64,000 nt of DNA, taken from a virus. Position numbers and translations under genes: made by a program. Within the stretch, counting starts at the first letter, position 1. Every line of letters starts with the position of its first letter. The notes below the pieces were generated by a model. It saw only the letters and a list, made by a program, of their open reading frames with translations, made no database searches and was not told where the DNA came from. The stretch is from positions 1-64,000 of the IMG/VR virus record IMGVR_UViG_3300005537_000023, one strand, 5' to 3'. This document shows positions 12,344 through 43,917 of this stretch, piece by piece.

Positions 12344-13027
12344 ATGCCCGATCCCGCCGTCGCCCCCGTGGTCGAAACGCCCGCCCCTGCCCCGGCCAAC
12401 GGCAAGGCGCCGGCGCCGGCCAAGCCCTCCCTCGCGGACGTGCTCCGTGGGCTCAGTCCGGCCGATGTCGAGGAAGCGAAGAAGGTTTTCGCCGATCTCG
12501 TCGGCGGCGCGGTTCCGAAAGCGGAAGCCAAGCCCGAGGAAAAGAAACCCGAGGCGGATCCGCACCCGATGCCCGACGGCCTCGTGGCACTGCCCACGAA
12601 ATCCTTCCAGTGGACGCCCGATTGCTGGCGCGGCGACACGTACGCGATCAACGGCGAGACGCACTACCGCCCGATCCTCCACGGCGTCTACCTCGCCGCC
12701 GACACTCGCCCCGCCGTCCCCGCGCTCATCTTTGCGTTGTGGGAGCCGCTGCGGGTGATGGATCGGCGCGGCAAGATCGTTGAAGCGGCGCCCGATGGAA
12801 GCGTGGTGCTCGTGGACGCAACGCCCTCGCTCCTCACATTGCTGGACACGGACGTCAGCCAGGGATGCCCTCACGTCGCCGTCCGCCCGACTCGATCCAC
12901 CGTCTCCACGAGCGGCGCCGAGGTGTGGTTTTTCGACGTGCAAGTGGAGCCCGATCGCCGCAATCCGCAGTTGCCGAAGCTCTACACGCGGGAAAGCGCC
13001 CTCGGAAAGCGAGGGGTGAAGCGATGA
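12344..13027 (+). CDS. hypothetical protein, first gene of the late operon
   Basis: SD AGGAG; Pro/Ala-rich N-terminus. Confidence 0.7.
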   Translation: MPDPAVAPVVETPAPAPANGKAPAPAKPSLADVLRGLSPADVEEAKKVFADLVGGAVPKAEAKPEEKKPEADPHPMPDGLVALPTKSFQWTPDCWRGDTYAINGETHYRPILHGVYLAADTRPAVPALIFALWEPLRVMDRRGKIVEAAPDGSVVLVDATPSLLTLLDTDVSQGCPHVAVRPTRSTVSTSGAEVWFFDVQVEPDRRNPQLPKLYTRESALGKRGVKR

Positions 13028-13215
13028 CGGACGCACCGAAGCAGCGCCGCGGATTCGCCGTCATGTCGCCGGAGAAGCAGGCGGAGATCGCGAGCAAGGG
13101 CGGCAAGGCGGCGCACGCGAAGGGCACCGCGCACGAGTTCTCATCCGAGGAGGCGCGCGAGGCCGGACGCAAAGGCGGGATGGCGGCGCGGGCGAAACGG
13201 GGAGCGGCGTCGTGA
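13024..13215 (+). CDS. KGG-repeat general stress protein (YciG/GsiB-like)
   Basis: RGFAVMSPEKQAEIASKGGKAAH..GTAHEFSSEEAREAGRKGG. Confidence 0.9.
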   Translation: MTDAPKQRRGFAVMSPEKQAEIASKGGKAAHAKGTAHEFSSEEAREAGRKGGMAARAKRGAAS

Positions 13216-13949
13216 TCCCTCACGGCCTCTACCTTCTCACCTTCATCGCCGCTGCCGTCGTCGCGGCTCTCGTCAGCACCGCCCGATTCCTCAGACGCGG
13301 CGCGGTGGTGCCGTGGGCAAGCGTGCAACTCCCAAGCAAGCCATTCGAGGGACGGCCGATTCCGTTGGGCGCTGGGCCGTGCAAGATCCCAGGGAGATCG
13401 GGGCCAGACGTCCAGTCGCTAGAGCGTCGAGATGGATGCAACGCCATCACCCTGCTCCCAGTTGAGGCCTTCGTCCTGACTGAGATCGGCTTGTACTGTG
13501 ACAAGCCCAATCGCCTGCACGTCACCAGCGTGAAGATCGGGCGAATGGAGTTGATCGAGAGCGGCGCCATCGTGGCGGACGCTTTCGGCAAAGGCGGGCC
13601 TTCCACGAAGATCGCCGCCGGTGCCACCATCTATCCCACCACTGGCATCCGCTTCACCTTCACGAATCCAGACGTCGATCCGGTTGACGTGTCGCCCATG
13701 GTCATGGGCAAGCCAGTGGCATGCCCAATCAGTTCGCCCGGCCTCACCATCGCCGATGACATCGTTGCGATGGCGGGCACGGCTTTGGTGGCTGCGTACG
13801 CGCTTCACTCGCCGGGGCACATCCTCTTTGCCGCCGCCGGCCTCACCGCTGGCCTCGCCCTCGTGCGCGCCGTGGACTTCGCGCGGAAGGCCGTGAATTA
13901 CAGCCGTTCGCTGGTGGCCAACTGGCGAGCGAGGAAGAAGAAGGCATGA
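13212..13949 (+). CDS. membrane-anchored paralog of the putative capsid protein
   Basis: shares RPIPLGAGP, TLLPVEAFV, IGRM and GATIYPTTGI.FTFTNP with 15642-16226; hydrophobic segments at both ends. Confidence 0.75.
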   Translation: MIPHGLYLLTFIAAAVVAALVSTARFLRRGAVVPWASVQLPSKPFEGRPIPLGAGPCKIPGRSGPDVQSLERRDGCNAITLLPVEAFVLTEIGLYCDKPNRLHVTSVKIGRMELIESGAIVADAFGKGGPSTKIAAGATIYPTTGIRFTFTNPDVDPVDVSPMVMGKPVACPISSPGLTIADDIVAMAGTALVAAYALHSPGHILFAAAGLTAGLALVRAVDFARKAVNYSRSLVANWRARKKKA

Positions 13950-14374
13950 CCCGCAAAGACACCTCCAACGGCCGACTCTCCATCGACGAATCGCTGGAGG
14001 ACTGGATCATCTTCTACGAGGGCGACGTCGCGAAGATCGGCCGCCTCGTGGGCACGAGCGAGGACGAGTTGCGCGACGAGATGGAGGACGGCACGCCCAG
14101 CGTCACCCTCGCGCCCGTCTTCGTCTTCTCGCGCACCGTCCTGCCGATGCGCACGCCGCAAGGGCAAGTGCTCACGCCCATCCCATCCGCCGATCGCTTG
14201 GAGTCCGCGTTCGATCTGGGCGACGGCGATTCGGAGGTGTACGTACTCCTTTCCGATTTCGAGTTTGCCTCCACGCGCACGCTCGCCTCGCGCCGTCACA
14301 TCGCCGCGCGCTTGAATGAGGCGCAGCGGATTCACGCTGGCCAGATCGTTGTGCCGGCTGTGGAGGTGCGGTGA
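13946..14374 (+). CDS. hypothetical protein
   Basis: coupled ORF. Confidence 0.65.
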   Translation: MTRKDTSNGRLSIDESLEDWIIFYEGDVAKIGRLVGTSEDELRDEMEDGTPSVTLAPVFVFSRTVLPMRTPQGQVLTPIPSADRLESAFDLGDGDSEVYVLLSDFEFASTRTLASRRHIAARLNEAQRIHAGQIVVPAVEVR

Positions 14375-14930: not shown

Positions 14931-15011
14931 CGGCAAGGCAAACGTAGCGATTCCGAGGACTAAGCGCGAGACTCCACGTTGCGCAACACGCAACCGAGGA
15001 GATCGATCCGC

Positions 15012-15584
15012 ATGTACTCGCTCGCCAGCCTCAACGCCGCTCGCCGCCATCGTCGTCATCACCGCCATCATCACCGCCACAACCGGGCGGAGGCGATGAG
15101 TGGATCGAAGCGCGATCAGTTGGCGTACTTCGCCGGTCAGAAGGGCGTTGGAGGCGCGGTCTCTGGCCTCCTCGGCTACATGGACTCGTACAACGGCGAG
15201 CCCACCTTCTTCGCGACGGCGGGTGATCCCACGAGCGGCGTCGGCCTCAAGGCGATGGTCGCGATCGCGGGCAACCTCGCGCAGGCCTTCCAAATCTGGA
15301 CAGGCCGCTTCATGGGCAAGTCCATGGGCGCGCTCGGCAACGTGATCGACGGCGCGATCGCCGGTACCGCGGACGCGGGCTGGTTCTCGTGGACGTACGT
15401 GCAGGGCAACACCTACGGCGCCGCGAAGAAGGCGTCAGAGTCGCCGCCGCACAAGACGAGCGGTGTCGGCTTCAACTACGACGGCGCCCCCGAGCCTCGC
15501 GCGATGGGCGTCGGCACTCCTCGCGATCACGTCTCGCGCGCTGCGGCTGCGGTGCAGTCGAGCGGACTCGCCGGTTACATCTAG
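15012..15584 (+). CDS. virion membrane/core protein with Arg/His-rich N-terminus
   Basis: SD GAGGAG; RRHRRHHRHHHRHNR, Gly-rich hydrophobic helices, GVG motifs. Confidence 0.7.
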   Translation: MYSLASLNAARRHRRHHRHHHRHNRAEAMSGSKRDQLAYFAGQKGVGGAVSGLLGYMDSYNGEPTFFATAGDPTSGVGLKAMVAIAGNLAQAFQIWTGRFMGKSMGALGNVIDGAIAGTADAGWFSWTYVQGNTYGAAKKASESPPHKTSGVGFNYDGAPEPRAMGVGTPRDHVSRAAAAVQSSGLAGYI

Positions 15585-15641: not shown

Positions 15642-16226
15642 ATGATGTCCTTTGGTCGCCGCAATCCCGCTACCGTCGCCGGTACCCCCTACGCTCGCAC
15701 GGGCAACGTTGCCGTCCGCGGCGCCTTCGCTCCTCGCTCCGGCGCGGTTGTGGGCTACACGCCCCGTCCGCGTGGCGCGGGAGTCGGCGCGTGCGGCGAT
15801 GGCAGCACGAATCCGCCCGGCGGCACGCAGGCGTGGTGCTACAACACGCAGGGCAGCCGCCCGATCCCCCTCGGCGCTGGCCCCGTCGCGATCCCGGCGT
15901 TCGCCGCGGGTGCGAGCGGTACCAACAACGTGACGTTGCTTCCGGTCGAAGCGTTCGTCATCGAAGACATCGAGGTGACGGACCCGACGGGCCTGCTCTT
16001 CGTGTCGAGCGTCCAGATCGGCCGCATGCAGTTGCTCGAAGGCGGCACGATCTCGACCGACTACTTCCAGTCGGCGTCGACGAAGTGCAAGTTGGCGCAG
16101 GGCGCGACGATCTACCCGACCACGGGCATCGTCTTCACCTTCACCAACCCGACCAACGCGATCGTCAACGTCTCCGTGGTCGTCACCGGAACGCCGGTGC
16201 CGTGCCCGCAGGGCGGCTTGAAGTGA
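15642..16226 (+). CDS. putative major capsid protein (single jelly-roll-like) with basic N-terminal arm
   Basis: SD AGGAG; RRNP arm then ~120-aa alternating beta-strand domain; fold is inferred, not searched. Confidence 0.6.
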   Translation: MMSFGRRNPATVAGTPYARTGNVAVRGAFAPRSGAVVGYTPRPRGAGVGACGDGSTNPPGGTQAWCYNTQGSRPIPLGAGPVAIPAFAAGASGTNNVTLLPVEAFVIEDIEVTDPTGLLFVSSVQIGRMQLLEGGTISTDYFQSASTKCKLAQGATIYPTTGIVFTFTNPTNAIVNVSVVVTGTPVPCPQGGLK

Positions 16227-16613: not shown

Positions 16614-17636
16614 GTGGCGTACGAGCCTACTTTCGCGATCGACTGTATCGGAAGGGATCCTGGCGCCATGGGCAAAGTGGCGCTTGGAAGGCTCGCGGCC
16701 GCTCTCGTGGACATCAACGCGGAGTACATCCGGACCTACCCCGGAAGCTTCGCGAGTGTCTATGAGAGCGGCTTCGTCATTGGCGAACCGCTTGGCCGTG
16801 GCGGCCTGTGCGGCGATCGCCGCTGGCAAGACGTCGCCGTGATGAGGGATTCCGGCATCGTCAAGCCGGACGATCTCGTGATGGCGCGCGTCGCCGAGTT
16901 GAACGAGGTGGAGAAAATCGCCGCCAAGGTGCGGGTGTACTCGAACGATGACGGCCTATACGAGTTGCTGGTGGAGTGGCCTGCAACGCTTCCCGTCGGT
17001 GCCGTATACCCCGAGAGCGTCTACCCGCACCCGATCGACGGCGCCCTCGTCGAGTCCCCGTCGGAAGCGATGGGCTCGCGCGAAAAGGCGTCTTTCGTCG
17101 CGCCCAAGCGCCCGTATCGGCTGACGATCGCCGTCGACTGCATCGGCGAGGATCATCCCGAGGCCGTGCGGATGGCCGTGGATCACTGCATGGGATACCT
17201 GCTGCACGCGCTGACGGACATCGACGAGATGTACCTCCGCGCCTTCCCGGACAAATTCCAGCTGCTGTACCAGTCGTGTGTTGTCTATGATCGCATGAAT
17301 CCGCCCGCTGGCAGCGCGTGCGGCGACGACGACTGGCAAGACATCGTTGTCACCTACGAGAGTTGCAAAGGCGACTGCGAAGACGTGGCGTGCATTCGCG
17401 CCGCGGAGGTCAATGTCCACTACAGCATCCCCGTTGTGCCCATGGTGATGCTGCAACAGAATCTTCAACCTGGCGCGCGCACTCGTCACCTCTACCACGT
17501 GATGGACAAGTGGCCCGATGGCCTTGGCAACTACCCACCAAGCGTCTTCGCAGATCAGACGGATCAGGGTATGATGATGATGGAGTGCCCCTCAACGGTG
17601 TTGGGCATGACCGGAGATGAAGAGGCCGCGCAATGA
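16614..17636 (+). CDS. transglutaminase-like cysteine enzyme, tandem inactive and active domains
   Basis: C-half WQD...GDCEDVAC...HLYHV...CPS..LGM; homologous N-half lacks the Cys and His. Confidence 0.75.
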   Translation: MAYEPTFAIDCIGRDPGAMGKVALGRLAAALVDINAEYIRTYPGSFASVYESGFVIGEPLGRGGLCGDRRWQDVAVMRDSGIVKPDDLVMARVAELNEVEKIAAKVRVYSNDDGLYELLVEWPATLPVGAVYPESVYPHPIDGALVESPSEAMGSREKASFVAPKRPYRLTIAVDCIGEDHPEAVRMAVDHCMGYLLHALTDIDEMYLRAFPDKFQLLYQSCVVYDRMNPPAGSACGDDDWQDIVVTYESCKGDCEDVACIRAAEVNVHYSIPVVPMVMLQQNLQPGARTRHLYHVMDKWPDGLGNYPPSVFADQTDQGMMMMECPSTVLGMTGDEEAAQ

Positions 17637-19562: not shown

Positions 19563-20243
19563 GTGCCGTCTCCCGCCGCACGACTGAACCACCTCGGCGG
19601 AGGTGCGCAGAGCAATCTCGGCCCGAAGGCTGAGAGGCAGTTCATTGCGCGCGTGTGTCAGTCGCGCTGCCGTGACGAGTCGTACGGCCTCGTGTGCAGC
19701 GTCAACGTCAAGCTCAGTGGCAGCGTTGCGGACGTGGCCGCAAACGACATCTCATCGGCCTTCCTCGAAGTGGACTTTGGTGGCGGCGACTCCGACGAGT
19801 CGGCGTTCGCCATGGACTTGATCAACGGAACCTCGTTCCCCGCCATCGGCGGGTGCAACGTCTTCCTCAACTATCCGAAGACGGATGCGACGCAGCCCAA
19901 CATTGACGTCAGCGTGTCCGTTGGGAAGTATGAGGTTGGCGCGCAAGCCGCACTCGGCTGCCGACGCACGATCAAGGCGCGCACCGTCAACGGGACGAGC
20001 GCGATCCTGCCCATCCCCAAGTTCGCCGTCCAAGCCGTCTACGCCAACACAGCAATCGGCGTCGCTGCGGCGCAATTCGATCAACTCCGCGCGCCTGTCG
20101 TCGGCGCCGCCATCCTTTCCACACTCAACCTCGGAAAGACGCAGGCCACTAGCGTCCCGATTATCAACGGCGCGCGCGGATTCCAACTCACCGTTGCCAA
20201 CTCCACCGGCGATGCCGTCATCTTCAACCTGAGCCCCGCCTAA
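19563..20243 (+). CDS. beta-rich minor capsid/vertex-like protein, paralog A
   Basis: highly similar to 20243-20977. Confidence 0.7.
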   Translation: MPSPAARLNHLGGGAQSNLGPKAERQFIARVCQSRCRDESYGLVCSVNVKLSGSVADVAANDISSAFLEVDFGGGDSDESAFAMDLINGTSFPAIGGCNVFLNYPKTDATQPNIDVSVSVGKYEVGAQAALGCRRTIKARTVNGTSAILPIPKFAVQAVYANTAIGVAAAQFDQLRAPVVGAAILSTLNLGKTQATSVPIINGARGFQLTVANSTGDAVIFNLSPA

Positions 20244-20977
20244 TGCCCCCCGCGATCTCCCGAGTCAACCACCGCGGCGGTGCTGCCCAGTCGAACCTTG
20301 GGCCGAAGGCGGAGCGTCAATTCATCGGCCGCGTCTGCACGTCCAACAGCGACACCGGGGCGGCCAACTACGAGTCCATTGGCCTCGTCTGCTCCGTCAA
20401 CGTCAAGCCCAGCACGGGCCTCACTGGCTTCGTGGACGCGGCCAACGTGGACATCTCGGACGCCTTCCTCACGATCGAATTCGGCGGCGGTGACAGCGAT
20501 CTGTCCGTCTTCGACATGGACTTGGTCGACGGGGTGAGTTTCCCTGCGATCGGCCAGATCAACGTCTTTCTCAACTACCCCATCCTCGTCCAGAATCCGC
20601 AGTCGCCGGTGGTCCAACCGCCGCTCGACATCTCGATCAGCGTGGGCAAGGGCTGCGTCGGTGCACAGGCGGCCCTCGGGTGCAGGCGGACGATCAAAGT
20701 GGGCGGACTCGGAAACAACGCCGCGAGCAACGTGCTGCCGATCCCCAAATTCGCCGTGCAGGCGATCTATGCGAACACGACGATCGGCGTCGCCACCGCG
20801 CAATTCGATCAAACCATCTCGACCGCAAACGGCTCCGCCGTCATCTCGACCATTTTGCTTGGGAAGACGCAGGCGTCGTGTGTCCCGATCATCAACGGGG
20901 CGCGCGGTTTCATCGTGACGTCCACGCAGGGCGCCACGACAGGAAATGCTATCATCTTCGAGTTGTCCCCCGCATAA
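20243..20977 (+). CDS. beta-rich minor capsid/vertex-like protein, paralog B
   Basis: shares AQSNLGPKAERQFI, GLVCSVNVK, VGAQAALGCRRTIK, PIPKFAVQA, PIINGARGF and LSPA*. Confidence 0.7.
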   Translation: MPPAISRVNHRGGAAQSNLGPKAERQFIGRVCTSNSDTGAANYESIGLVCSVNVKPSTGLTGFVDAANVDISDAFLTIEFGGGDSDLSVFDMDLVDGVSFPAIGQINVFLNYPILVQNPQSPVVQPPLDISISVGKGCVGAQAALGCRRTIKVGGLGNNAASNVLPIPKFAVQAIYANTTIGVATAQFDQTISTANGSAVISTILLGKTQASCVPIINGARGFIVTSTQGATTGNAIIFELSPA

Positions 20978-20991: not shown

Positions 20992-22101
20992 ATGGCCTTG
21001 TCTACTGGTGCAAAGATCGCGATCGGCGGAGCCGCGGCGCTCGCCGCGTACTTCCTGCTCGCCGGCACCTCCAAGGCCGCAACGGTGGATCCTCACGTTG
21101 CCGGCCAGTCAGCCGGCTGTGCGGACGGCAAGCGAGACGCACTCGCCGGCCAGGATCCCCTCGGCGCCGCCGACGTCACGGGATCGGCGACGATCACCGC
21201 GCAGGCCAACGCCAGCGGCGATCCCGTCGCGTACCTCGATGGGTACATGAGTGGCTACAACCAGTGCTACTCGGCCAACAAGCCAGCGGCGCCCGTTGGC
21301 CCGTCCAAGGGGCCGGCCGCGAAGAAGCCGACGGGGCCGAGTGCCCCGCCTGGTGCAGACAAGCCCGGCGCGATGGACGCGTATGGCAAGGGCTGCTTTC
21401 AGGGCGCGAAAGACGGCTACAACGACGGCCTCGGCGGCAACAGCAGTCGACCGCATCCGTCGGACTACGCCAGTGGCAACCCCACGGCATTCGCCGCCGG
21501 CTATCGTCGCGCGTACTCCACGGCGTACAGCAACGGGAACTTCGGCTATCAGGCCGCGATCGATGCCGGCTTCCCGCCGGATGAGGCCGCGTCCACCGCG
21601 CTCGGCGCTGCCGATCCGACGTACCCGGACACCGTGGCCTCGGGCTGCGATGGGTACTTCGACGGCTGGTGGAGCGCGACGACGGGCACCGGCGGCATCG
21701 AGGGCTTCTTCCAGAAGATTGAGGTGGGCGGGATCGCTCTCGTGGGCATGCGTCGTCCTCGCATGGTGGTGCAGCGACTGGCGCCGCAACCGCTTGGATC
21801 CACCGCATGCCGTAAGGGTGCCGCGGATGGATGGCGGTACGGGTGGGATCACGGCGACGCCAGCAGTATGGCCGGCACCGTTGGGAGCGATGACTACGCG
21901 CGCGCATTCAGGCTCGCGTCCAAGGAAGCCGCCAGCGTCGTTGCGAGCAACCCAATGCTTCCTGGCACCCCCCCGCCCATTCCGATGGACGTCCTGAATC
22001 GAGTGCTTGCTCAGTGCAGCACGCTCGGCACCGTCGCCCCTCATCCGCTCGGCTGGCCTGCGCCCCCGCCGGGATCGTCCCGCATCTACCGGAGCTATTG
22101 A
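20992..22101 (+). CDS. membrane-anchored protein with GxxxG(Y) helical repeats
   Basis: SD AAGGAG; N-terminal TM; YLDGYMSGY, KGCFQGAKDGYNDG. Confidence 0.7.
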   Translation: MALSTGAKIAIGGAAALAAYFLLAGTSKAATVDPHVAGQSAGCADGKRDALAGQDPLGAADVTGSATITAQANASGDPVAYLDGYMSGYNQCYSANKPAAPVGPSKGPAAKKPTGPSAPPGADKPGAMDAYGKGCFQGAKDGYNDGLGGNSSRPHPSDYASGNPTAFAAGYRRAYSTAYSNGNFGYQAAIDAGFPPDEAASTALGAADPTYPDTVASGCDGYFDGWWSATTGTGGIEGFFQKIEVGGIALVGMRRPRMVVQRLAPQPLGSTACRKGAADGWRYGWDHGDASSMAGTVGSDDYARAFRLASKEAASVVASNPMLPGTPPPIPMDVLNRVLAQCSTLGTVAPHPLGWPAPPPGSSRIYRSY

Positions 22102-22103: not shown

Positions 22104-22766
22104 ATGTCGACCAAGATCCTTTCGTTTCGTCCCCGCGCTGCCCTTCTGCCCGTGCCGCAGCCGAAGCCGCTTGTTCGCGTTGGGGCAACCGCTCCGGCGC
22201 CCGGCCCTTCGATGACGGATCAGGCCCTCACCACGATCGGTGGCCCCAACTACTCCACGGAGGTGACGCTTGGCACCGCGGCCGGCGCCGTTGCCGGCTT
22301 CTTCGGCGGCGGCTGGCTGTGGAGCCTCCTCGGCGGCATCGGCGCGAACCTCGGCGGCCGGTACTTCGCGCAATCGCAGTGCGCGAAGAACGGCGGCGCG
22401 AAGTGCGCAACCCAGCCCGCGCAGGGTGGCTCGGCGCCGGCCGGAAGCGGCGGATCGATCGCCAAGGCGGCGGACGGATCCATGTCCATCTCTGTCGATC
22501 CGATGGTGGACGCCGTATTCTCGGACAACACCACGGCGCCCGTCCCAGCCGGCGCTGTCCTCGCTGGCCGCACGGCGCATCTGCTGACGCCGTCGGGCTT
22601 CGGCCTCGATGCACTCGTCGTCGGCTATGACAACTCCTCGGATGGCGTTGCGCTGCAACTCGCGAAGCTGCCCGACGGCACGCCGACGCCCCTGATCGCC
22701 CTCCTCGGTGGTGGCGGCCCGTCCACCTTCGCCATCCACCGCAGCAAACTGCAATCGGTTGCGTGA
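22104..22766 (+). CDS. leader-bearing membrane protein
   Basis: ILSFRPR...VRVG|A leader, then glycine-zipper TMs. Confidence 0.7.
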   Translation: MSTKILSFRPRAALLPVPQPKPLVRVGATAPAPGPSMTDQALTTIGGPNYSTEVTLGTAAGAVAGFFGGGWLWSLLGGIGANLGGRYFAQSQCAKNGGAKCATQPAQGGSAPAGSGGSIAKAADGSMSISVDPMVDAVFSDNTTAPVPAGAVLAGRTAHLLTPSGFGLDALVVGYDNSSDGVALQLAKLPDGTPTPLIALLGGGGPSTFAIHRSKLQSVA

Positions 22767-23256: not shown

Positions 23257-23262
23257 GACGCG

Positions 23263-32665: not shown

Positions 32666-32671
32666 AAGTGC

Positions 32672-32701
32672 TTGACGTTGGATATCGCGCCTGATATCCA
32701 A
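32672..32701 (+). promoter_or_regulatory. internal promoter/operator, TTGGATATC-N6-GATATCCAA
   Basis: TTGACG at 32672 followed by a perfect 9-bp inverted repeat at 32678-32701. Confidence 0.55.
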
Positions 32702-32707
32702 TGGCGC

Positions 32708-34158: not shown

Positions 34159-34230
34159 GGCAGGGACTAGAGAGGCGACGCGCCTACCCGCGTCGCCGTT
34201 TGCTTGTCAAGCGCGCTCGCTTGGGGCACT

Positions 34231-37647: not shown

Positions 37648-38178
37648 ATGCCATACCGCCACGGATTCAGTGAAGAGTCCATCCACCACAACATCGCCCT
37701 CTTCATCCGCGAGGGCTACCCGCAAGATCAGGCCGTCGCCATGGCCCTCGACATCGCGCGCAAGGCGTGGCGGCGGGAGCATCCGCGTGGCAACTACCCG
37801 GCGCACTTGAAGGGGATGCGGGGGCCGAGGAAGAGGCGGAGGGGGAAGCGGGCGCGGAGGAATCGCGCCTCGTCATCCGCAACACTGCAACTCGGCCCAG
37901 GTAGAGAGATGCCGGAGAATACGGCCATCCTGCGGCGGTCAACGTTGAAGGCGCGATACGCCGCCGGCGATCTGAATGGAGCGGTCAAGTCGGCCGGGCA
38001 CTACGCGCGCAAGCACCGGCGGACGATGTACGTGTACGAGGGCAATTCGTACATGCACCGCGCGTTTCGCGTCAGCGACAAGCCGAGTGAATACCTGAGT
38101 CCGATCAACAATACCGGCGATCGCGTTGTGTCGGTGACGCCCGATCTCATCGTGTCGATTCACGAAGTCTACCGATGA
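37648..38178 (+). CDS. basic virion-associated protein
   Basis: SIHHNI...EGYPQDQAVAMALDIAR motif and RKRRRGKRARRNR patch. Confidence 0.65.
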   Translation: MPYRHGFSEESIHHNIALFIREGYPQDQAVAMALDIARKAWRREHPRGNYPAHLKGMRGPRKRRRGKRARRNRASSSATLQLGPGREMPENTAILRRSTLKARYAAGDLNGAVKSAGHYARKHRRTMYVYEGNSYMHRAFRVSDKPSEYLSPINNTGDRVVSVTPDLIVSIHEVYR

Positions 38179-38399
38179 CCCCCCACGCCCTCGCCACCCT
38201 CTTCTGGCTCCTCGCCCTCGTCGCCTTCCTCGCGCACGGCTGGGGCCTTTCCGGCCTCGGCCCCATCCCCGGCGTTGCCCCCGATTGGGCGTATCGCGCG
38301 GGCGCGGCGGCCGGGTACCCGCTGGCGGTGGCGTTTGCGTGCGTGGCGATGGCGCTGCACGCGGTAGGATGGAAGCGTGGCCGCGCCGATTCCGCCTGA
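38175..38399 (+). CDS. small 2-TM protein
   Basis: two hydrophobic segments. Confidence 0.55.
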   Translation: MTPHALATLFWLLALVAFLAHGWGLSGLGPIPGVAPDWAYRAGAAAGYPLAVAFACVAMALHAVGWKRGRADSA

Positions 38400-39540
38400 G
38401 TACGACACCGACGACGCCGATCCCCTCGTGGACGCGCCCGCCCTCACAGCGCCCCCACCGCCGAAGTCCTACGAGTGCACCGCGTGCCTCCGCCGCGTTG
38501 CCGCGCGCGTCACCCGCTGTCCTTGCTGCAACCAGATCGCAACGTGGCAGCCGTCCGACGAGCCGCCCGAGGTGCGCAAATTCAAGCTCGCGCGCCCGGC
38601 GCCGCAACCGTCCTTTTTCGGCCGTGGCCTCTCCCACGTCCCCGCCGGCCTCGTGTCCGCGTGGATGTCGGGCGGCCCGAAGGTGGACGCACGCATCTCG
38701 CTGCCGGGCGCAGGGGCGAAAGAGGCCGAGAGGGAAGGGCCGGCGAAGGCGCGTCCGCGGCTGCTCGCCAACGTGGAGTACGAGAAGCGCGATCGATTCA
38801 CCACCGGCATCATCCCCGTGGACATCGCCTTCGGTGGCAAAGACGATCCGGGCATTCCCATCGGCGCCTCGTACATGCTCGCGAGTCCGCCCAACGCAGG
38901 GAAGTCCTCGATCGCCCTTCGCATCTGCGCCGCGATCGCCCAGCGCTACGGCGTGCCCGTCCTCTACGTCACCACGCCGGACGAGATGGGCGTAGACATG
39001 GTGGCCGAGTACGCGCGCGAAAGAGGCATCTGGCGCGAGTACCCATCGGCGGCGCGCTTCCTCCAGGTGGCGGTGGCCGAGACGGTGGAGGAGTCGATCG
39101 CGCTGGTCGACGAGGTGGATGCGCCCTTCTACGTCCTCGATTCCACCAACGGCGGGCTCACGACGAGCAACCCCACCGTCAGCGGGAGCAAGGATTCGAT
39201 CCTGCTCTACATCTCGAAGCTGCACGCGCACCGCTGCGGCAGGAAGATCGCGAAGTGGAAGGAAGCGCCGGGGCGCACCGGCCTCATCCTCGCGCACGGC
39301 ACGAAAGACGGGGACATGTCCGGGCCACTCGCCGCGCGCCACAACGTGGACGGTACCTTCCTGCTCGAATACTTCGACCCCGCGACGGGCTGGGCGCTGG
39401 AGCCGCGCGCGCGCAAGGAATGGGTGCGCCTGATCCAAGAGAAGTCGCGCGTATCCCCACCGCCGCCGCAAGGGCTTCTCCTCGCCTTCTACACGGACCA
39501 GAAGCGCGGCCCCGTGCCCGCGCAGCCATCCACCGAATGA
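38377..39540 (+). CDS. RadA/Sms-like RecA-fold ATPase lacking the Lon-like C-domain
   Basis: YECTAC..RCPCC..W Zn finger; TGI..VD..FGG; Walker A SPPNAGKS; Walker B YVLDS; HGTKDG.MSGP...HNVD. Confidence 0.85.
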   Translation: MAAPIPPEYDTDDADPLVDAPALTAPPPPKSYECTACLRRVAARVTRCPCCNQIATWQPSDEPPEVRKFKLARPAPQPSFFGRGLSHVPAGLVSAWMSGGPKVDARISLPGAGAKEAEREGPAKARPRLLANVEYEKRDRFTTGIIPVDIAFGGKDDPGIPIGASYMLASPPNAGKSSIALRICAAIAQRYGVPVLYVTTPDEMGVDMVAEYARERGIWREYPSAARFLQVAVAETVEESIALVDEVDAPFYVLDSTNGGLTTSNPTVSGSKDSILLYISKLHAHRCGRKIAKWKEAPGRTGLILAHGTKDGDMSGPLAARHNVDGTFLLEYFDPATGWALEPRARKEWVRLIQEKSRVSPPPPQGLLLAFYTDQKRGPVPAQPSTE

Positions 39541-39649: not shown

Positions 39650-41647
39650 ATGGCGCTGGTGAATACGGCAAACAACCCCAACGGTGTCCTTGGCCTCGGC
39701 CAGTCCGCAGCGATGGATCAGTACGTCACCTTCGGCGGGCGTACGCTGCCGCCGGACGAAAACGCGATCCTCGCCTCGTTCAACTCGCTTACCGGCGTGG
39801 TGGCCACCGTTGCCCCGCTGCTCCCTCTCTCCCCCGCTGGCAACGACGGCGCCTCCATCACCGCCGCACTCCAGTCCGGCGACGTCGTCCTCCAGCAGGG
39901 CGCCACGTACAACATTCAGACGGCAATCAACCTCAATGGCCTGACGGATCGTACGCTCGATCTGAACGGCGCGAAGCTCGTCGGAAAGTTCAGCGGCGTC
40001 CTCACGGTGGCGAACTCCGTCATCTTCGGCCAGGCAGTCAACGCGGCGCTGGCCCCGACAACCTGCAACGGCACGCCCGTGGTCGGATCGAACCAGCTTG
40101 TTGTTACGCTTGCTGCTGGAATCGTTGCGGGCAACTCGATCAAGGTGGTTTCGGCCGCGTCCGCAAACCTCGTTGCTGTCTACCGAGTGACGTTGGTGGT
40201 GGCGAACACACTCACTCTCGACCGGCCGATCCTACTGCCGTTTGCGAACCTCGACGTTGTTACGCTCTTGCAGTCGGTCCCGACGAGGCTCGTCATCATC
40301 GGTCGCGGCGCGGTCATCACGGGCGACTCGTTCGCCGCGATCGACATCCTGCACGCATACCAGTGCTCGGTTGTAGGGCCGATCTATGCGGACGTCGAGG
40401 GTGGCCACGGCCCCCTGCGCGGCTTCGCACTCGACATCGGCTCGTTCTCGTCGTCAATGTCGCAGACCTACGTCGACGGATACGACCACTCGTCTAACAC
40501 GGACTTCCCGGACTTCGGCGTGGCGATGCTAGGTACCGAGCAGTGCTCGGTCATGGATAGCCGCGCCGGACACTGCAACGTGGCCGGCCTCATCTGCCTC
40601 GACGGCTACCAGTCGCGCATGTCCCGGTGCGACGGCTACTCGTGCAACACCGCGCTTGCGTCTGCGGCGGCGTTCGGCACGCAAGCTGTCGCGGCGACGA
40701 CGCAGGGGTGCGAGGACTGCGAGTTCGATTCGATCTCTGGAAGCCAGTCCGTCTTCGGCGTCGCGGTAACGAATGCGACGCGGTGCACGTGGCGCAACGT
40801 CAGATCGATCGGATGTACGACGAGAAACCTCGACGTTGGAGGCGGCGCTACGGCATGCATGGACTGTGTGTTCGATGGAGTGTCCGTCGGCATAGGGACC
40901 CCTACGACCGCGTCGATTCTCGTCAGCGCTACGGTCGTGAGGCCGTCGTTCTTCAACGTTCGTTTCAGCGGCGTCCTTGGCACGGCGGCATGCATGTCTC
41001 TAGGCTGTCCTGGCGCTCTGAGAGGACTGATTGCGATCTCTTCAAACACTACGACCGGCACCGTCCTAGTGACGTCTGGCGCCGCAGACGACGACACAGT
41101 CATCTCGGACGTCAGAATCACGCTGAAAGCGTCGGCAGCAAACACGATCGGTGTCAACGTTCAGAACAGCGCCGGAAGAGTTTTCATCAGAAACGCTCTG
41201 ATCGCACTCGGCGTAGCGAGCGACGTCGGTATCTTCCAGAACGGTATCTGCGTCGTGGAGATGGACGACGTGACCGTGTCGAATCCGAACGCCGTCGCGA
41301 CAACCGTGGGGTTCATCGCGAACGGCGCGACATCCGTCACGAGGCGCAAGGGCAGGATCAACATGTCCGCCACCGCTACTCCGTTCACGCTCGTGCAGTC
41401 GGACGTGGGAACGTTCACCACGAATGGCGCGGTGGCAGTAACGGTGCCGTTCAAGGATATCCCAGACGTCACCGGCGGAGGCGTGGCGCCGGTGAGTTTG
41501 ACGGGCGCCAAGGTGAATACGTGGATGATCGCGGCAGCTGGCACGCCCGCACCTGATCAGACGATCGTTATCACGCTCGCCACTGGGTTTACGTCCACCG
41601 GGAAGAACCTAGATACGTCCGTCCGCGGATACAAGGTTATGGACTGA
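39650..41647 (+). CDS. receptor-binding spike with pectin-lyase-like beta-helix
   Basis: NDGASITAAL..GDVVL..GATY start and repeating beta-helix coils. Confidence 0.75.
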   Translation: MALVNTANNPNGVLGLGQSAAMDQYVTFGGRTLPPDENAILASFNSLTGVVATVAPLLPLSPAGNDGASITAALQSGDVVLQQGATYNIQTAINLNGLTDRTLDLNGAKLVGKFSGVLTVANSVIFGQAVNAALAPTTCNGTPVVGSNQLVVTLAAGIVAGNSIKVVSAASANLVAVYRVTLVVANTLTLDRPILLPFANLDVVTLLQSVPTRLVIIGRGAVITGDSFAAIDILHAYQCSVVGPIYADVEGGHGPLRGFALDIGSFSSSMSQTYVDGYDHSSNTDFPDFGVAMLGTEQCSVMDSRAGHCNVAGLICLDGYQSRMSRCDGYSCNTALASAAAFGTQAVAATTQGCEDCEFDSISGSQSVFGVAVTNATRCTWRNVRSIGCTTRNLDVGGGATACMDCVFDGVSVGIGTPTTASILVSATVVRPSFFNVRFSGVLGTAACMSLGCPGALRGLIAISSNTTTGTVLVTSGAADDDTVISDVRITLKASAANTIGVNVQNSAGRVFIRNALIALGVASDVGIFQNGICVVEMDDVTVSNPNAVATTVGFIANGATSVTRRKGRINMSATATPFTLVQSDVGTFTTNGAVAVTVPFKDIPDVTGGGVAPVSLTGAKVNTWMIAAAGTPAPDQTIVITLATGFTSTGKNLDTSVRGYKVMD

Positions 41648-41669
41648 GAGAGAAAACGCAGGCCGCAGC

Positions 41670-42008
41670 ATGTCTACCAAAACAGATCACGGAGATCACG
41701 AGCGAGGAACGTTCGTGCACCCTTGCGACAACAACTCGTACAGGTACCCGTCCAGCATCGAGTCCGAGCATCACGTTGGGTTTGACGGAAGGCCAATATA
41801 CTCCAAGGCTCAGAGAGGCGCGCTCAAGCTTGTGAGTGATCTACCAGTGACCTCGACAGATGACGAACACGTCCCGTCGTTCGTTGGCCATGAGAGACAT
41901 TACTATCTTGATACAACTGTATCAGTAAATGAGTCAGTCGTACACGCAGAACCTCTGACTGATGCGCAAGACGCGCAAGACGCAGAGAGTAAGAATGGCG
42001 CTGCGTAA
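41670..42008 (+). CDS. hypothetical protein
   Basis: ORF between the two spike genes; lower GC. Confidence 0.45.
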   Translation: MSTKTDHGDHERGTFVHPCDNNSYRYPSSIESEHHVGFDGRPIYSKAQRGALKLVSDLPVTSTDDEHVPSFVGHERHYYLDTTVSVNESVVHAEPLTDAQDAQDAESKNGAA

Positions 42009-43917
42009 CAATGGAATTGACGCCAGCGGCGTGATAGGGCTCATATCTGTTGCGTCATTTGATGACTACCAAACGTCTGGTAGTAGGACTCTTCCTGGCG
42101 ATGAGTCGGCAATTGTAAAAACAATTGACAGCATTTCGTCAGTTCTAAATACGGTAGTTCCTGCATCTGGAGTCAGGACCATGTGGTTTGGTGACTCCAT
42201 CACCGGACTAGGAGGTACCGGAGCGGCCGTGTCCGCTAGGGACCAGTTCTGGACAGACTCTAGGTCTAGAGGTCTAGACGTTCGTGCGTTCGCTCGTACG
42301 TATCAGGGAACCGTCGGGGAGCCTCACCCATACGAGCCATGGTCGGACGGAAACAGCGGATACATGATCGAGGATCTCACCGCCCTCATGGGCGGTGCGC
42401 CAACCATCACCGCTCCGTCTCCTCTCACGAAGAACTTCATCGGCCTGAACGGCCAGCCGGACCTGATCGTACTCGGAGCAGGAACAAACAACATTGACAC
42501 GTCTGGCGATTCGGCCGCGACGTGCGAAACGAAGCTGACGACGCTGCTTGCGCAGATCACCGCGACGTGCCCGAACGCGCGCGTCATCGTCACGACGATC
42601 CCGAGTTTCTATTCGCCCGCGACGCCCTCCGGCGGGATCGCGGCGGCGAATGCGAGCGTCGCTGCGTACAACGCATGGATTCTCGCCAACGTCCCCGGAC
42701 TCAGCCCTCTCTATTCGGTAGTTGATCCTACGCCGCAATGGTCCAACGATACGGCGTACCCACCGGACGGGACACACCTCACGGAGGAGGGGGCGGCAGC
42801 CAGGGGCAGGTCCGTCACGGACGAGGCTGCCAGGCTATTCTCTGGCAGACGAGGCCCGGTATCCCCGAGGCCGTTCAAACCTCGCTCTCAGCAGGCATCC
42901 GTCCGGCTGCCGACCGCAGGCACTAGCAAGATACAGACGAATGCGCCGGATGCTGGATGGATTTTGCCCGCGGCAAGCTTCGCTGTCGGTGCGCGCATCC
43001 AGATACTCGGACTCAGTGCTGGGGTAGACAACTACGTTTTTTCGTCCTGTCCCGTCGGAGGCAACGGGCCGGCTAACGGGTTCTCAGTCACGATCGACGC
43101 GTCGGTAAGTCCGCCCAAGTGGACTATCTATCTGAAAGGTATCGCGGGCGCCGCTGCCTCGTTCGCTGCTCCAGTCGTGGCCGATCTTCCAATATGGCTG
43201 TCCTGGCACGTGGATGACGTAGCGCGCACGATCACTCTCTGGATCGCTATGCCGCACAGCCTGTCTGTCGCCGGCTCCGTGTACGTGTGCGCATGCGTTG
43301 GCGGCGCGACAGGGATAGCGGCGTTCTCACAAGGAGATCCTAACCCTCTCTTCAACATCGGCACAGACAGCACTGGCGTTCGTGGTGGCCCAGCCATGAT
43401 CGTGGACAACGTCTGGATGGCGAGCGGAAAGAACCTGCCAGGTGTTTTCTCTTTCCGGCCTGCGTTCGAGGCGTGGGTATACGACGGTACGGACATTCCA
43501 GGAGTGACTGCGTCTCTACACTGCGCGGAGGGTACAGGAGCCGTCGTCGCCAGCGGAAGCGGAGGCCAGTCAGCGACGATAGCCACTGGAGACTGGAGCG
43601 CTTCGGGTGAAGTGTCGTGGCCGAGCGACGAGAACGGGGATGCCACTCCTACCGCGTGGACTACGGTAGACATGAACGACGCTAATCAAGTCCTTCCGTC
43701 ATCTTCGTTCAACGCCACGACGATTGAGCTGACGGGTCCAATGACGGGGGACCACACGATTACTCTACCAAGAAGGAAGGGGAGGATCGTAACTCTAAAT
43801 AATAAGACGATCGGTGGACACAACACCCCAGGGATTGGACTTACTGGAGTAAGCGCCGGGGGCTCTCCTGGCATATCCAGGGTGTACTGGGACGGAGTGA
43901 ACTTCGTGCCTGCCTAA
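41995..43917 (+). CDS. spike protein with SGNH esterase and LamG-like domains
   Basis: WFGDSIT, GNSG, GAGTNN, DGTH; N-terminus homologous to 39650-41647. Confidence 0.85.
   Translation: MALRNNGIDASGVIGLISVASFDDYQTSGSRTLPGDESAIVKTIDSISSVLNTVVPASGVRTMWFGDSITGLGGTGAAVSARDQFWTDSRSRGLDVRAFARTYQGTVGEPHPYEPWSDGNSGYMIEDLTALMGGAPTITAPSPLTKNFIGLNGQPDLIVLGAGTNNIDTSGDSAATCETKLTTLLAQITATCPNARVIVTTIPSFYSPATPSGGIAAANASVAAYNAWILANVPGLSPLYSVVDPTPQWSNDTAYPPDGTHLTEEGAAARGRSVTDEAARLFSGRRGPVSPRPFKPRSQQASVRLPTAGTSKIQTNAPDAGWILPAASFAVGARIQILGLSAGVDNYVFSSCPVGGNGPANGFSVTIDASVSPPKWTIYLKGIAGAAASFAAPVVADLPIWLSWHVDDVARTITLWIAMPHSLSVAGSVYVCACVGGATGIAAFSQGDPNPLFNIGTDSTGVRGGPAMIVDNVWMASGKNLPGVFSFRPAFEAWVYDGTDIPGVTASLHCAEGTGAVVASGSGGQSATIATGDWSASGEVSWPSDENGDATPTAWTTVDMNDANQVLPSSSFNATTIELTGPMTGDHTITLPRRKGRIVTLNNKTIGGHNTPGIGLTGVSAGGSPGISRVYWDGVNFVPA

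What the first reader, a model, noticed from the sequence alone, without database searches (positions are those of the whole stretch)
12344..43917. Complete-looking virion operon with no tailed-phage hallmarks: candidate tailless, membrane-containing jelly-roll virus of unusually large genome size
Seen: the ~31-kb late operon is bracketed by non-structural genes, yet I find no terminase, portal, HK97 capsid, tail tube or tape measure. It instead has a small beta-strand protein with a basic RRNP arm (15642-16226), a clear paralog (13212-13949), two tandem beta-rich paralogs (19563-20977), more than 15 small TM proteins, TM-anchored cell-wall enzymes and two spikes. Established: paired single-jelly-roll capsid proteins, an internal membrane and virion transglycosylases characterise tailless Varidnaviria (sphaerolipovirus-like and PRD1-like). 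Inference: this is a varidnavirus-like capsid module on a >64-kb lambdoid-style replication/recombination backbone. No A32/FtsK-type packaging ATPase is visible either.
Basis: partly seen in the sequence, partly recalled or inferred. Interest (0 to 1): 0.9.

Follow-up and report, generated by a model that had tools for sequence, protein, structure and literature searches.

The report
Soil virus lacking all tailed-phage genes
A complete 73-kb virus genome from soil, probably infecting actinobacteria, has no detectable terminase, portal or known capsid gene and instead carries small jelly-roll proteins and many membrane proteins, so it probably builds a non-tailed, lipid-containing particle of a kind not yet described at this genome size.

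Summary
The window is 64 kb of a complete 73,142-bp circular or permuted virus record. Pfam and PHROGs scans of 114 ORF translations across the whole genome found no terminase, portal, HK97 capsid, tail or FtsK/A32 ATPase. Seven six-frame family searches at E<=10 also found nothing. So the first refutation test, hallmarks in the flanks, fails.

The tandem paralogs could not be modelled reliably. No link to Varidnaviria is shown beyond the fold.

New here: seven membrane proteins share an N-terminal leader, "RPRL...VRVGA". The module has almost no relatives in 5.8 billion proteins.

Best reading (about 0.5): a new non-tailed, membrane-containing temperate actinobacterial virus.

The parts
12344..13027 (+). 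First gene of the rightward late block (227 aa), Pro/Ala/Lys-rich N-terminal half, no family
   Evidence: GC3 0.82, ATG preceded by AGGAGC. No Pfam or PHROGs hit.
12865..13215 (+). Small KGG-repeat (stress-protein-like) ORF
   Evidence: PF10685 KGG, E 1.4e-13.
13212..13949 (+). Membrane-anchored paralog of the jelly-roll protein: N-terminal TM segment, jelly-roll core, C-terminal hydrophobic helices
   Evidence: 52% identity over 125 aa to 15642-16226, E 7e-35. TM segments. An ortholog lies on the 82-kb relative (P0005).
14979..15584 (+). Protein with a His/Arg-rich N-terminus and a Gly/Ala-rich body. Candidate DNA- or membrane-associated core protein (inference).
   Evidence: Translation. No family hit.
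15642..16226 (+). 194-aa protein: disordered basic arm of about 63 residues, then an eight-stranded jelly-roll-type beta-sandwich. Candidate capsid or vertex protein.
16614..17636 (+). 340-aa protein made of two homologous halves with conserved Cys/Asp/Trp positions. Function unknown.
   Evidence: The halves are 31% identical over 166 aa, E 1e-19. No family hit and no tblastn match in phage genomes.
19563..20243 (+). Tandem beta-rich paralog 1 (226 aa). Candidate major structural protein.
   Evidence: 61% identity to 20243-20977, E 4e-95. Only 8 family members in 5.8 billion proteins.
20243..20977 (+). Tandem beta-rich paralog 2 (244 aa). Candidate major structural protein.
20992..22101 (+). 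369-aa protein with an N-terminal TM segment or signal and Gly/Tyr-rich repeats
   Evidence: Frame fixed by GC3 plot and translation. TM segment.
22104..24696 (+). Four consecutive genes (22104-22766, 22763-22972, 22972-23256, 23263-24696). Each starts with the leader [LIV][ST]xRPR...V[RS]VG[AD]. Most continue into glycine-rich TM segments.
   Evidence: Regex scan found 6 hits, all at the N-termini of + strand ORFs, against a shuffle mean of 0.67. An HMM built from the 7 leaders recovers those 7 ORFs (E 3e-13 to 3e-8). The next ORF scores E 0.28.
24916..25191 (+). Small lipoprotein-like ORF (signal peptide ending AIGC)
   Evidence: Translation. Hydrophobic segment.
25194..26996 (+). Intein-bearing protein. 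The extein is 138 + 96 aa and has no known family; it contains an HEVLE motif. The intein with HNH endonuclease spans 25608-26705.
   Evidence: PF14890 Intein_splicing E 1.2e-12, HNH PHROGs. Intein N- and C-terminal models. Boundaries. The N-extein has no Pfam, PHROGs or tblastn match.
27000..27692 (+). Lytic transglycosylase with an N-terminal membrane anchor
   Evidence: PF01464 SLT, 24.2 bits (cut-off 21.3). phrog_13530 E 7e-16. Hydrophobic N-terminus.
28228..28941 (+). N-acetylmuramoyl-L-alanine amidase with an N-terminal membrane anchor, of the actinophage LysA type
   Evidence: PF01510, 46.9 bits. phrog_12609 endolysin E 1.9e-28. In tblastn, all 391 matching phage records are actinophages.
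30327..30949 (+). Two small two-TM proteins (30327-30644, 30641-30949). Holin-like by inference.
   Evidence: TM segments.
31473..33153 (+). Second cluster of leader-bearing membrane proteins (31473-31742, 31746-32519, 32884-33153), plus a 71-aa TM protein (32672-32887)
   Evidence: 31473 and 32884 are paralogs by eye, sharing GGH[NS]HP followed by a glycine-zipper TM segment.
34174..34197 (+). Terminator-like GC-rich hairpin closing the first late unit
   Evidence: 9-bp stem with 8 GC pairs, followed by a T-rich tail. The 33153-34204 stretch is only weakly coding on the + strand.
38175..39540 (+). Two-TM protein (38175-38399) overlapping the start of a RecA/RadA-like ATPase with an N-terminal zinc ribbon (38377-39540). 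This is the only P-loop protein in the late region.
   Evidence: TIGR00416 sms E 4e-11. PDB RecA and RadA matches. Walker A scans.
39650..41647 (+). Receptor-binding-type protein 1 (665 aa), beta-rich, no family
   Evidence: Shares an N-terminal 56-residue anchor with 41995-43917. No Pfam, PHROGs or PDB sequence match.
41995..43917 (+). Receptor-binding-type protein 2, carrying an SGNH/GDSL hydrolase domain
   Evidence: PF13472 E 7.6e-12. Shared N-terminal anchor. GC3 only 0.65.

Best explanation
The window is most of the complete genome of a temperate virus from soil. The unique length is 73,142 bp, circular or circularly permuted, and the host is probably an actinobacterium.

Its late genes (12.3-33.2 kb, plus the two receptor-binding proteins at 39.6-43.9 kb) do not encode a tailed-phage particle. 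The most likely product is a non-tailed, lipid-containing virion with these parts:
- Small jelly-roll proteins build or decorate the shell: the 194-aa protein with its basic arm, its membrane-anchored paralog, and probably the tandem 226/244-aa pair.
- A dozen or more small virus-coded membrane proteins sit in a virion membrane.
- Membrane-anchored transglycosylase and amidase open the cell wall at entry and/or exit.
- Two enzymatic or beta-rich spikes dock by a common 56-residue N-terminal anchor.
- Seven of the membrane proteins share an N-terminal leader (RPR...VRVGA). I read this as a targeting or cleavable propeptide that sends them into the particle.

DNA is enclosed without a terminase or an FtsK-type motor. 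It may be enclosed by co-assembly with the very basic proteins of the block. Less likely, the RecA/RadA-like ATPase coupled to a two-TM protein does the work.

Shown: the gene content, the absences, the paralogies, the jelly-roll fold of one protein, the TM enrichment and the leader family.
Inferred: the membrane, the particle shape, the role of each protein, leader cleavage and the packaging route.
For: - Complete genome. It is one contig with an exact 90-bp terminal overlap. The record is classed as having direct terminal repeats with completeness 100.
- No tailed-phage hallmark. Pfam and PHROGs on 114 ORF translations found none. Relaxed scans found none. Seven six-frame searches at E<=10 found none.
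- No suitable large ORFs. No ORF exceeds 686 aa, so there is no tape-measure-sized ORF. The 477-aa ORF carries a leader and a C-terminal TM segment.
- ATPases. The only Walker A protein of the late block is RecA/RadA-like.
- Still a virus. Integrase, RecE-like exonuclease, HNH endonucleases, methylases and a clamp all hit PHROGs. The amidase is of actinophage LysA type, with 391 of 391 matching records being actinophages. Two long proteins share an N-terminal anchor as phage receptor-binding proteins do.
- TM enrichment: 13 of 45 late ORFs against 4 of 56 elsewhere.
- Leader family. A V.VG motif also occurs in the N-terminal arm of 23 of 35 relatives of the jelly-roll protein, against a shuffle mean of 1.9.
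- Precedent. The passages I read in Yutin et al. 2018 (PMC5894146) describe ATPase-less jelly-roll viruses (the Odin group and FLiP). The passages I read in PMC6356626 describe SSIP-1, a membrane phage with two capsid protein types and a genome that shares hardly any similarity with GenBank sequences.
Against: - BFVD and ESM Atlas neighbours are unnamed proteins, labelled mostly as from tailed phages.
- The tandem paralogs gave only a pLDDT 44 model.
- No FtsK/HerA ATPase is present, and that ATPase is close to a signature of known membrane-containing icosahedral dsDNA phages.
- A 73-kb genome is about four times the 7-18 kb range that Yutin et al. give for prokaryotic double-jelly-roll viruses.
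- TM-anchored lysins could simply be signal-anchor-release endolysins.
- A membrane cannot be shown from sequence.
- No genomic context could be obtained for any relative, so conservation of the module is known only from single proteins.
Confidence: 0.5

Rival explanations
1. It is a virus, but the small jelly-roll proteins are accessory parts such as spike knobs, cement or vertex pieces. The shell, or a shell-less nucleoprotein or enveloped particle, is built from other dark ORFs with a fold or architecture not yet linked to bacterial viruses. Candidates are the duplicated 340-aa protein, the intein-bearing 234-aa extein and the basic proteins. The architecture could be portoglobovirus-like co-assembly, or a pleomorphic envelope.
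For: - All 45 late ORFs except the lysins, the intein, the KGG protein, the ATPase and the SGNH domain lack any family hit.
- The intein marks 25194-26996 as an important conserved protein of unknown kind.
- There are several very basic proteins and no packaging motor.
- The jelly-roll matches include fibre, cement and turret proteins.
Against: - There is no positive evidence for any alternative shell protein.
- The 194-aa protein is 91-93% identical in its nearest relatives, against 80-82% for the orthologs of the 244-aa tandem protein.
- Its GC3 (0.88) is among the highest in the block. This fits an abundant structural protein better than a minor accessory one.
Confidence: 0.23
2. It is a tailed phage (Caudoviricetes) whose terminase, portal, HK97-fold capsid and tail genes have diverged beyond the reach of profile HMMs.
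For: - The non-structural genes are typical of temperate tailed actinophages.
- Atlas and BFVD neighbours of the jelly-roll protein are mostly labelled as from tailed phages.
- Jelly-roll cement, baseplate and fibre domains are common in tailed phages.
- A shared N-terminal anchor on two receptor-binding proteins is a tailed-phage habit.
Against: - Large terminase is the most conserved tailed-phage gene. It is absent from Pfam, PHROGs and six-frame searches at E<=10.
- No unexplained P-loop protein exists anywhere in a credible reading frame.
- There is no tape-measure-sized ORF and no portal-sized soluble ORF.
- 13 of 45 late ORFs are membrane proteins. As far as I know, this is far more than tailed phages carry.
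Confidence: 0.12
3. It is not a particle-forming virus but a phage-derived plasmid or integrative element. On this view the 12-44 kb block is a cell-envelope, transfer or spread module, or the element depends on a helper phage for capsids.
For: - The 90-bp terminal overlap shows only that the molecule assembles as a circle.
- Small hydrophobic proteins plus wall hydrolases also occur in Gram-positive transfer systems (my own knowledge).
- No capsid or packaging gene is recognised.
Against: - No relaxase, VirB4, VirD4 or FtsK/TraB-type translocase was found. FtsK_SpoIIIE gave 0 hits at E<=10 (one search was Pox_A32; FtsK was), and the Pfam scans found none.
- Endolysin-type amidase, holin-like proteins and two receptor-binding-type proteins with enzymatic domains point to lysis and adsorption.
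- As far as I know, 73 kb is far larger than any known satellite.
Confidence: 0.1

Closest known systems
Single-jelly-roll, internal-membrane viruses: Sphaerolipoviridae/Simuloviridae (HHIV-2, HCIV-1, SH1) and Matshushitaviridae (Thermus phages P23-77, IN93)
   Same: - Both have a disordered or extended N-terminal segment ahead of a small jelly roll. The HHIV-2 penton protein has its first 40 residues disordered (PMC6414509, passages read).
- Both have many small membrane proteins.
- Both have adjacent small beta-rich paralogous genes that could act as a capsomer pair.
- A temperate lifestyle with an integrase is known in IN93 (recalled).
   Different: - There is no sequence or profile similarity.
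- There is no FtsK/HerA-type packaging ATPase.
- The genome is 73 kb. Sphaerolipoviruses have about 30 kb (abstract listing of PMC12643093) and P23-77 about 17 kb (recalled).
- The two tandem proteins are 61% identical, far closer than VP16/VP17 or VP4/VP7.
- The host is probably a mesophilic soil actinobacterium.
Tectiviridae of actinobacteria and Firmicutes (Toil, WheeHeim, Bam35) and other double-jelly-roll phages (PRD1, PM2)
   Same: - Non-tailed particles with a virus-coded membrane proteome and virion-associated wall hydrolases (PMC6356626, passages read).
- Spikes at the vertices.
   Different: - PRD1 P3_N gave 0 hits at E<=10. No double-jelly-roll candidate of suitable size and fold was identified.
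- Pfam found no protein-primed polymerase, and there are no inverted terminal repeats.
- No FtsK-type ATPase was found.
- The genome is 4-10 times larger than the 7-18 kb range in Yutin et al. 2018.
[quoted passage not shown]
   Same: A membrane-containing, non-tailed phage with two capsid protein types, whose genome 'hardly shares any similarity' with databases (PMC6356626, passages read). It is the nearest precedent for a larger genome in this morphotype, at about 44 kb (recalled).
   Different: - tblastn of four key proteins against 50,697 phage records gave no match at all. I did not check that SSIP-1 is among those records.
- Its host and habitat differ: a halophilic Bacteroidota.
Temperate tailed actinophages (Caudoviricetes)
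   Same: - The replication, recombination and lysogeny genes and the amidase are of the kinds these phages carry.
- An intein with an HNH endonuclease is common in actinophage genes (recalled).
   Different: No terminase, portal, HK97 capsid, protease, tail tube or tape measure was found by any search used.

Membership tests
Caudoviricetes (tailed phages) | Large terminase subunit (ASCE ATPase plus RNase H-like nuclease) | tested here: not met
   - No hit in Pfam or PHROGs on 114 ORF translations.
- Terminase_6N and TerL_ATPase six-frame searches gave 0 hits at E<=10, while the control genomes did give hits.
- The only Walker A protein of the late region is RecA/RadA-like.
Caudoviricetes (tailed phages) | Portal protein | tested here: not met
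   - Phage_portal six-frame search gave 0 hits at E<=10.
- No portal PHROG or Pfam hit.
- This is tested at profile level only. The folds of the dark ORFs were not predicted.
Caudoviricetes (tailed phages) | HK97-fold major capsid protein | tested here: inconclusive
   - Phage_capsid six-frame search gave 0 hits at E<=10, and no capsid PHROG was hit.
- HK97 proteins can escape profiles.
- Only two of about 45 late proteins were folded.
Caudoviricetes (tailed phages) | Tail genes (tube, tape measure, baseplate or adaptor) | tested here: not met
   - There were no tail-tube, tape-measure or adaptor hits.
- The only 'tail' PHROG matches fall on the SLT domain of 27000-27692.
- The longest late ORFs are 686, 665 and 651 aa.
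Varidnaviria with vertical jelly-roll capsid proteins (Helvetiavirae and Bamfordvirae of prokaryotes) | Major capsid protein(s) with a vertical single or double jelly roll forming pseudo-hexameric capsomers | tested here: inconclusive
   - These scores are within the background range for the method.
- The tandem paralogs were not modelled reliably.
- Orientation in a shell cannot be tested from sequence.
- PRD1 P3_N gave 0 hits.
Varidnaviria with vertical jelly-roll capsid proteins (Helvetiavirae and Bamfordvirae of prokaryotes) | FtsK/HerA-superfamily (A32-like) genome-packaging ATPase | tested here: not met
   - FtsK_SpoIIIE and Pox_A32 six-frame searches gave 0 hits at E<=10, while all 14 control genomes gave hits.
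- The only late ATPase matches RadA/RecA.
- The Odin group and FLiP also lack this ATPase (PMC5894146), so the feature is not universal.
Varidnaviria with vertical jelly-roll capsid proteins (Helvetiavirae and Bamfordvirae of prokaryotes) | Lipid membrane in the virion | not testable with these tools
   The only indirect evidence is that 13 of 45 late ORFs have TM-like segments, against 4 of 56 elsewhere.
Tectiviridae | Linear genome with inverted terminal repeats and a protein-primed family B DNA polymerase | tested here: not met
   - The ends form a 90-bp direct overlap, not inverted repeats.
- No DNA polymerase B hit in Pfam or PHROGs. The genome carries a DnaN clamp instead.
Conjugative or transfer elements (type IV secretion, actinomycete TraB systems) | VirB4/VirD4 or FtsK-like TraB translocase, and a relaxase | tested here: not met
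   - FtsK_SpoIIIE gave 0 hits at E<=10.
- No relaxase, VirB4 or T4CP family was found in the Pfam scans.
- The only related hit is a sub-threshold NikA-like match, E 0.0026, on a 68-aa ORF.

The most novel reading that the evidence does not exclude
This genome and its few relatives (82-kb and 59-kb contigs) may found a lineage of large temperate viruses of soil actinobacteria. Their particle-forming module would be unrelated to both the terminase-portal-HK97 set and the jelly-roll-MCP plus FtsK-ATPase set.

On this reading the virion is lipid-containing and its components share a conserved N-terminal address or propeptide (RPR...VRVGA). That leader is carried by at least seven membrane proteins, and a V.VG motif recurs in the arm of the jelly-roll protein family. 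The 73-kb DNA would be enclosed without any known packaging motor.
Probability: 0.25. Interest if true: 0.92.

Novelty: new variant of a known kind. Interest (0 to 1): 0.78.

Why it matters
Virus discovery pipelines and virus taxonomy lean on a handful of hallmark genes. Here a complete 73-kb virus genome passes every hallmark search empty-handed. Its structural proteins have only a handful of relatives among 5.8 billion database proteins, and no relatives were found in IMG/VR or in one genome per prokaryotic species.

If the particle is non-tailed and membrane-containing, several things follow:
- It extends that morphotype to a genome size several times the known bacterial range, and to a temperate soil actinobacterial virus.
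- It raises the question of how so much DNA is enclosed without a terminase or an FtsK-type motor.
- It offers a testable new sorting or processing signal for virion membrane proteins.
- It suggests that such viruses are systematically missed in soil viromes.

Papers found by five full-text searches describe non-tailed prokaryotic viruses, but from the listings I saw none describes this kind of genome. I did not search for the leader motif itself in print.

Tried and rejected
- Fold of the tandem paralogs. AlphaFold2 on 8 sequences gave pLDDT 44. Fold searches with that model are leads at most. The Atlas model of the same protein is equally poor (pLDDT 0.41), and its neighbours are uninformative.
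- Complex prediction on the two tandem paralogs returned 'no answer' (after queue-full replies). This is no evidence either way.
- Profile-profile comparison of the two beta families found no relation.
- Profile searches of both families against all PDB sequences at E<=10 gave only chance-level rows.
- Context of relatives.
  - IMG/VR scans with A2, P0034, P0038, A5 and A6 found none.
  - GTDB genome scans with A2 and with the IS1595 transposase found none.
  - The one JGI metagenome scan returned a 1.3-kb contig only (L002).
  - The look-up of encoding contigs is closed, so the 82-kb, 59-kb, 42-kb and other contigs could not be read.
- tblastn of the 194-aa protein, the 244-aa protein, the N-extein and the 340-aa protein against 50,697 phage records gave no match at E<=0.1.
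- No tRNA and no Rfam family were found in the window. No sigma-70-like promoter was found in 28-45 kb. No notable repeats were found in the 33-34 kb gap.
- Sequencing runs: one DNA holder, a soil metagenome that may be the source. No RNA holder was listed.
- PADLOC gave only a weak TmtA-like hit on the GHKL ATPase and helicase-type hits on the SNF2 helicase.
- By eye, 17633-18229 looks LysM-like and 27702-28124 looks like a second transglycosylase. Pfam at E<=5 supports neither, so I do not claim them.
- The leader HMM matches the arms of the jelly-roll relatives only weakly (best E 0.018 among 52 proteins). The link between the two rests on the short V.VG motif count and is a resemblance, not shown homology.
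- Rows left out:
  - P0033 and P0035 (1,545 and 2,181 aa, weak multi-stretch hits) were never aligned.
  - P0029 was dropped from A4 because of an aberrant C-terminus.
  - The motif count used 35 of the 39 sequences in A4. It left out the armless paralogs P0004 and P0005 and the N-terminally truncated P0032 and P0046.

Full report
WHAT THE SEQUENCE IS

The window is bases 1-64000 of a single 73,232-bp contig. The first 90 bases recur exactly at the end, so the unique length is 73,142 bp. The molecule therefore assembles as a circle, either a circular replicon or a permuted one. The genome tool describes it as a virus record with direct terminal repeats and completeness 100. G+C is about 65% throughout, so I called genes by third-position G+C and refined several starts by frame plots. 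One sequencing run holds the DNA. It is a soil metagenome and may be the source.

CHECK OF THE OBSERVATION: ABSENCES

Pfam and PHROGs scans of 50 ORF translations across 12.2-43.9 kb returned only these hits:
- a KGG-repeat protein;
- an intein with an HNH endonuclease;
- an SLT transglycosylase;
- an Amidase_2 endolysin;
- a weak RecA-like ATPase;
- a GDSL/SGNH hydrolase.

The same two libraries on 64 further ORFs covered the rest of the genome, including the 9.2 kb outside the window. They found the following genes and no structural gene:
- integrase;
- RecE/YqaJ exonuclease;
- SNF2 helicase;
- two DNA methylases;
- a DnaN clamp;
- a dNMP phosphatase;
- HNH endonucleases;
- an IS1595 transposase;
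- a T5orf172/MUG113 protein.

Relaxed scans added nothing: NCBIfam at E<=0.1, Pfam at E<=5 and PHROGs at E<=1.

Six-frame searches of the whole record at E<=10 gave no candidate for any of seven families, while control genomes responded. The families were Terminase_6N, TerL_ATPase, Phage_capsid, Phage_portal, FtsK_SpoIIIE, Pox_A32 and PRD1 P3_N.

A scan for Walker A motifs in credible reading frames leaves one P-loop protein in the late region, 38377-39540. That protein matches RadA/Sms (TIGR00416, E 4e-11) and RecA and RadA structures.

CHECK OF THE OBSERVATION: WHAT IS PRESENT

- The 194-aa and 245-aa proteins share a 125-residue core at 52% identity (E 7e-35).
- The tandem 226- and 244-aa proteins are 61% identical (E 4e-95).
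- The two long 'spike' proteins share only their first 56 residues (46%, E 6e-10). Receptor-binding proteins that dock on one site typically share only an N-terminal anchor in this way.
- The 340-aa protein at 16614-17636 is an internal duplication (31%, E 1e-19).
- Membrane proteins are enriched. A strict hydropathy scan flags 13 of 45 late ORFs against 4 of 56 others. Looser criteria and inspection bring the late count to about 19.
- The transglycosylase and the amidase each follow an N-terminal hydrophobic segment.
- The block is not one operon. A roughly 1-kb weakly coding gap (33153-34204) ends in a strong terminator-like hairpin at 34174-34197. The gap holds a leftward ORF with a sub-threshold CHAP match.

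THE JELLY-ROLL QUESTION

A word-based search found only five relatives of the 194-aa protein in 5.8 billion proteins. An exhaustive profile search found 24 in 1.84 billion representatives. A second profile search found 23. All are unnamed metagenomic proteins of about 140-250 aa.

With a 39-sequence alignment, AlphaFold2 gave a model with a confident core. Residues 70-190 have pLDDT about 90, and residues 1-63 are disordered.

- Foldseek against the PDB found nothing at E<=0.001. Its top row was HHIV-2 chain 6h82_b.
- Jelly rolls from tailed viruses also appear: KP1 baseplate, HFTV1 turret and Pam1 cement.

Chain b spans residues 39-173. The passages I read in Santos-Perez et al. 2019 (PMC6414509) say that the first 40 residues of the HHIV-2 penton protein are disordered. 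I therefore infer that chain b is that penton protein, but I could not verify this.

A NEW FEATURE: A SHARED LEADER

Seven late proteins begin with a shared leader of the form [LIV][ST]xRPR, then 8-14 residues, then V[RS]VG[AD]. They start at 22104, 22763, 22972, 23263, 31473, 31746 and 32884. Most continue into glycine-rich transmembrane segments.

- A regular expression finds six of them and nothing else in six frames, against 0.67 expected from shuffles.
- An HMM built from the seven separates them from every other ORF: E 3e-13 to 3e-8 for the seven, against 0.28 for the next ORF.
- The disordered arm of the jelly-roll family carries a related short motif. V.VG occurs in the first 70 residues of 23 of 35 relatives, against a shuffle mean of 1.9. 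Some arms read much like the leader.
- The leader HMM itself matches these arms only weakly (best E 0.018).

I read the leader as an address or cleavable propeptide for virion components. That reading is inference.

HOST AND LIFESTYLE

- All 391 phage records that match the amidase are actinophages. The collection is rich in actinophages, so this is suggestive rather than proof.
- The RecE-like exonuclease also matches mainly actinophages.
- The integrase indicates a temperate life.

INTERPRETATION

A tailed phage is unlikely. It would need a terminase with no recognisable P-loop, a portal and a capsid protein that are all invisible to profiles, and a tail without a long ORF. All of this would sit in a block where nearly a third of the genes encode membrane proteins.

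A transfer element is also unlikely. No translocase or relaxase is present, while lysis genes and receptor-binding-type genes are.

Its membership in Varidnaviria is not shown, and the signature FtsK-type ATPase is absent. There is precedent for jelly-roll viruses without that ATPase in the Odin group and FLiP. The 7-18 kb size range of prokaryotic double-jelly-roll viruses comes from the passages I read in Yutin et al. 2018 (PMC5894146). SSIP-1 is a precedent for a membrane phage with an orphan genome (PMC6356626, passages read).

How the 73 kb of DNA is enclosed is open. One possibility is co-assembly with the basic proteins of the block. Another is the RecA/RadA-like ATPase, whose gene overlaps that of a two-TM protein.

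CONFIDENCE

- Non-tailed, membrane-containing reading: about 0.5.
- A virus whose shell or architecture lies elsewhere among the dark ORFs: 0.23.
- A divergent tailed phage: 0.12.
- A non-particle element: 0.1.

LIMITS

- Only two structure predictions were available.
- No neighbour genes of any relative could be read.
- The complex prediction gave no answer.

Noticed in passing
window 25194-26996 (intein 25608-26705): An intein of about 366 residues with an HNH endonuclease interrupts a 234-aa protein of no known family, at ...ASEV|C...N|CDPVE. The extein carries an HEVLE motif about 25 residues upstream of the insertion site. Inteins usually sit in conserved, essential sites, so this dark protein is probably important for the virus.
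   Followed up: partly
window 16614-17636: A 340-aa protein made of two homologous halves (31% identity, E 1e-19). Conserved DCIG, CGD..WQD and AE.N motifs appear in both halves. No family, no match in phage genomes.
   Followed up: partly
window 33128-34204: A weakly coding, lower-GC gap of about 1 kb splits the late block. On the minus strand it holds an ORF (33700-34158) with a sub-threshold match to the C-terminal half of a CHAP domain (E 1e-4, 23.1 bits against a cut-off of 26). It ends in a strong terminator-like hairpin at 34174-34197.
   Followed up: partly
window 41670-43917: The second receptor-binding-type gene (SGNH hydrolase) and the small ORF before it have much lower third-position G+C (0.54-0.65) than the rest of the block (0.78-0.90). 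This suggests a recent swap of the receptor-binding module behind the conserved 56-residue anchor.
   Followed up: no
window 49724-51226 (minus strand), next to the integrase at 48415-49551: A 500-aa GHKL-type ATPase with weak hits to HATPase_c_3, the sacsin N-terminal domain and MutL, plus a PADLOC TmtA hit at E 7e-7. Its position beside the integrase is typical of a cargo or defence gene.
   Followed up: partly
L001 9220-10257 (genome 70220-71257, outside the window): An IS1595-family transposase (DDE_Tnp_IS1595 E 3e-29 plus a zinc ribbon) sits inside the virus genome. A scan of one genome per prokaryotic species found no close relative, so it gave no host clue.
   Followed up: yes
window 12865-13215: A KGG-repeat, stress-protein-like ORF (PF10685, E 1.4e-13) sits at the head of the late block. 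This is an unusual gene for a virus structural region.
   Followed up: no
window 14979-15584, 28960-29562, 35388-35543: Three very basic proteins. One has an RRHRRHHRHHHRHNR run followed by a Gly/Ala-rich body. They are candidates for DNA condensation in a virus that has no packaging motor.
   Followed up: no
window 8210-12246 (minus strand): A leftward block of unknown genes lies between the early genes and the late block. It includes a 379-aa protein with three TM-like segments (8210-9349) and a 350-aa protein with a weak HTH/excisionase-like N-terminus (11194-12246).
   Followed up: partly
window 31473-31742 and 32884-33153: Two 89-aa leader-bearing paralogs share a GGH[NS]HP motif followed by a glycine-zipper transmembrane segment. 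The related 22972-23256 protein gave a sub-threshold C19orf12-like (glycine-zipper membrane protein) Pfam hit.
   Followed up: no
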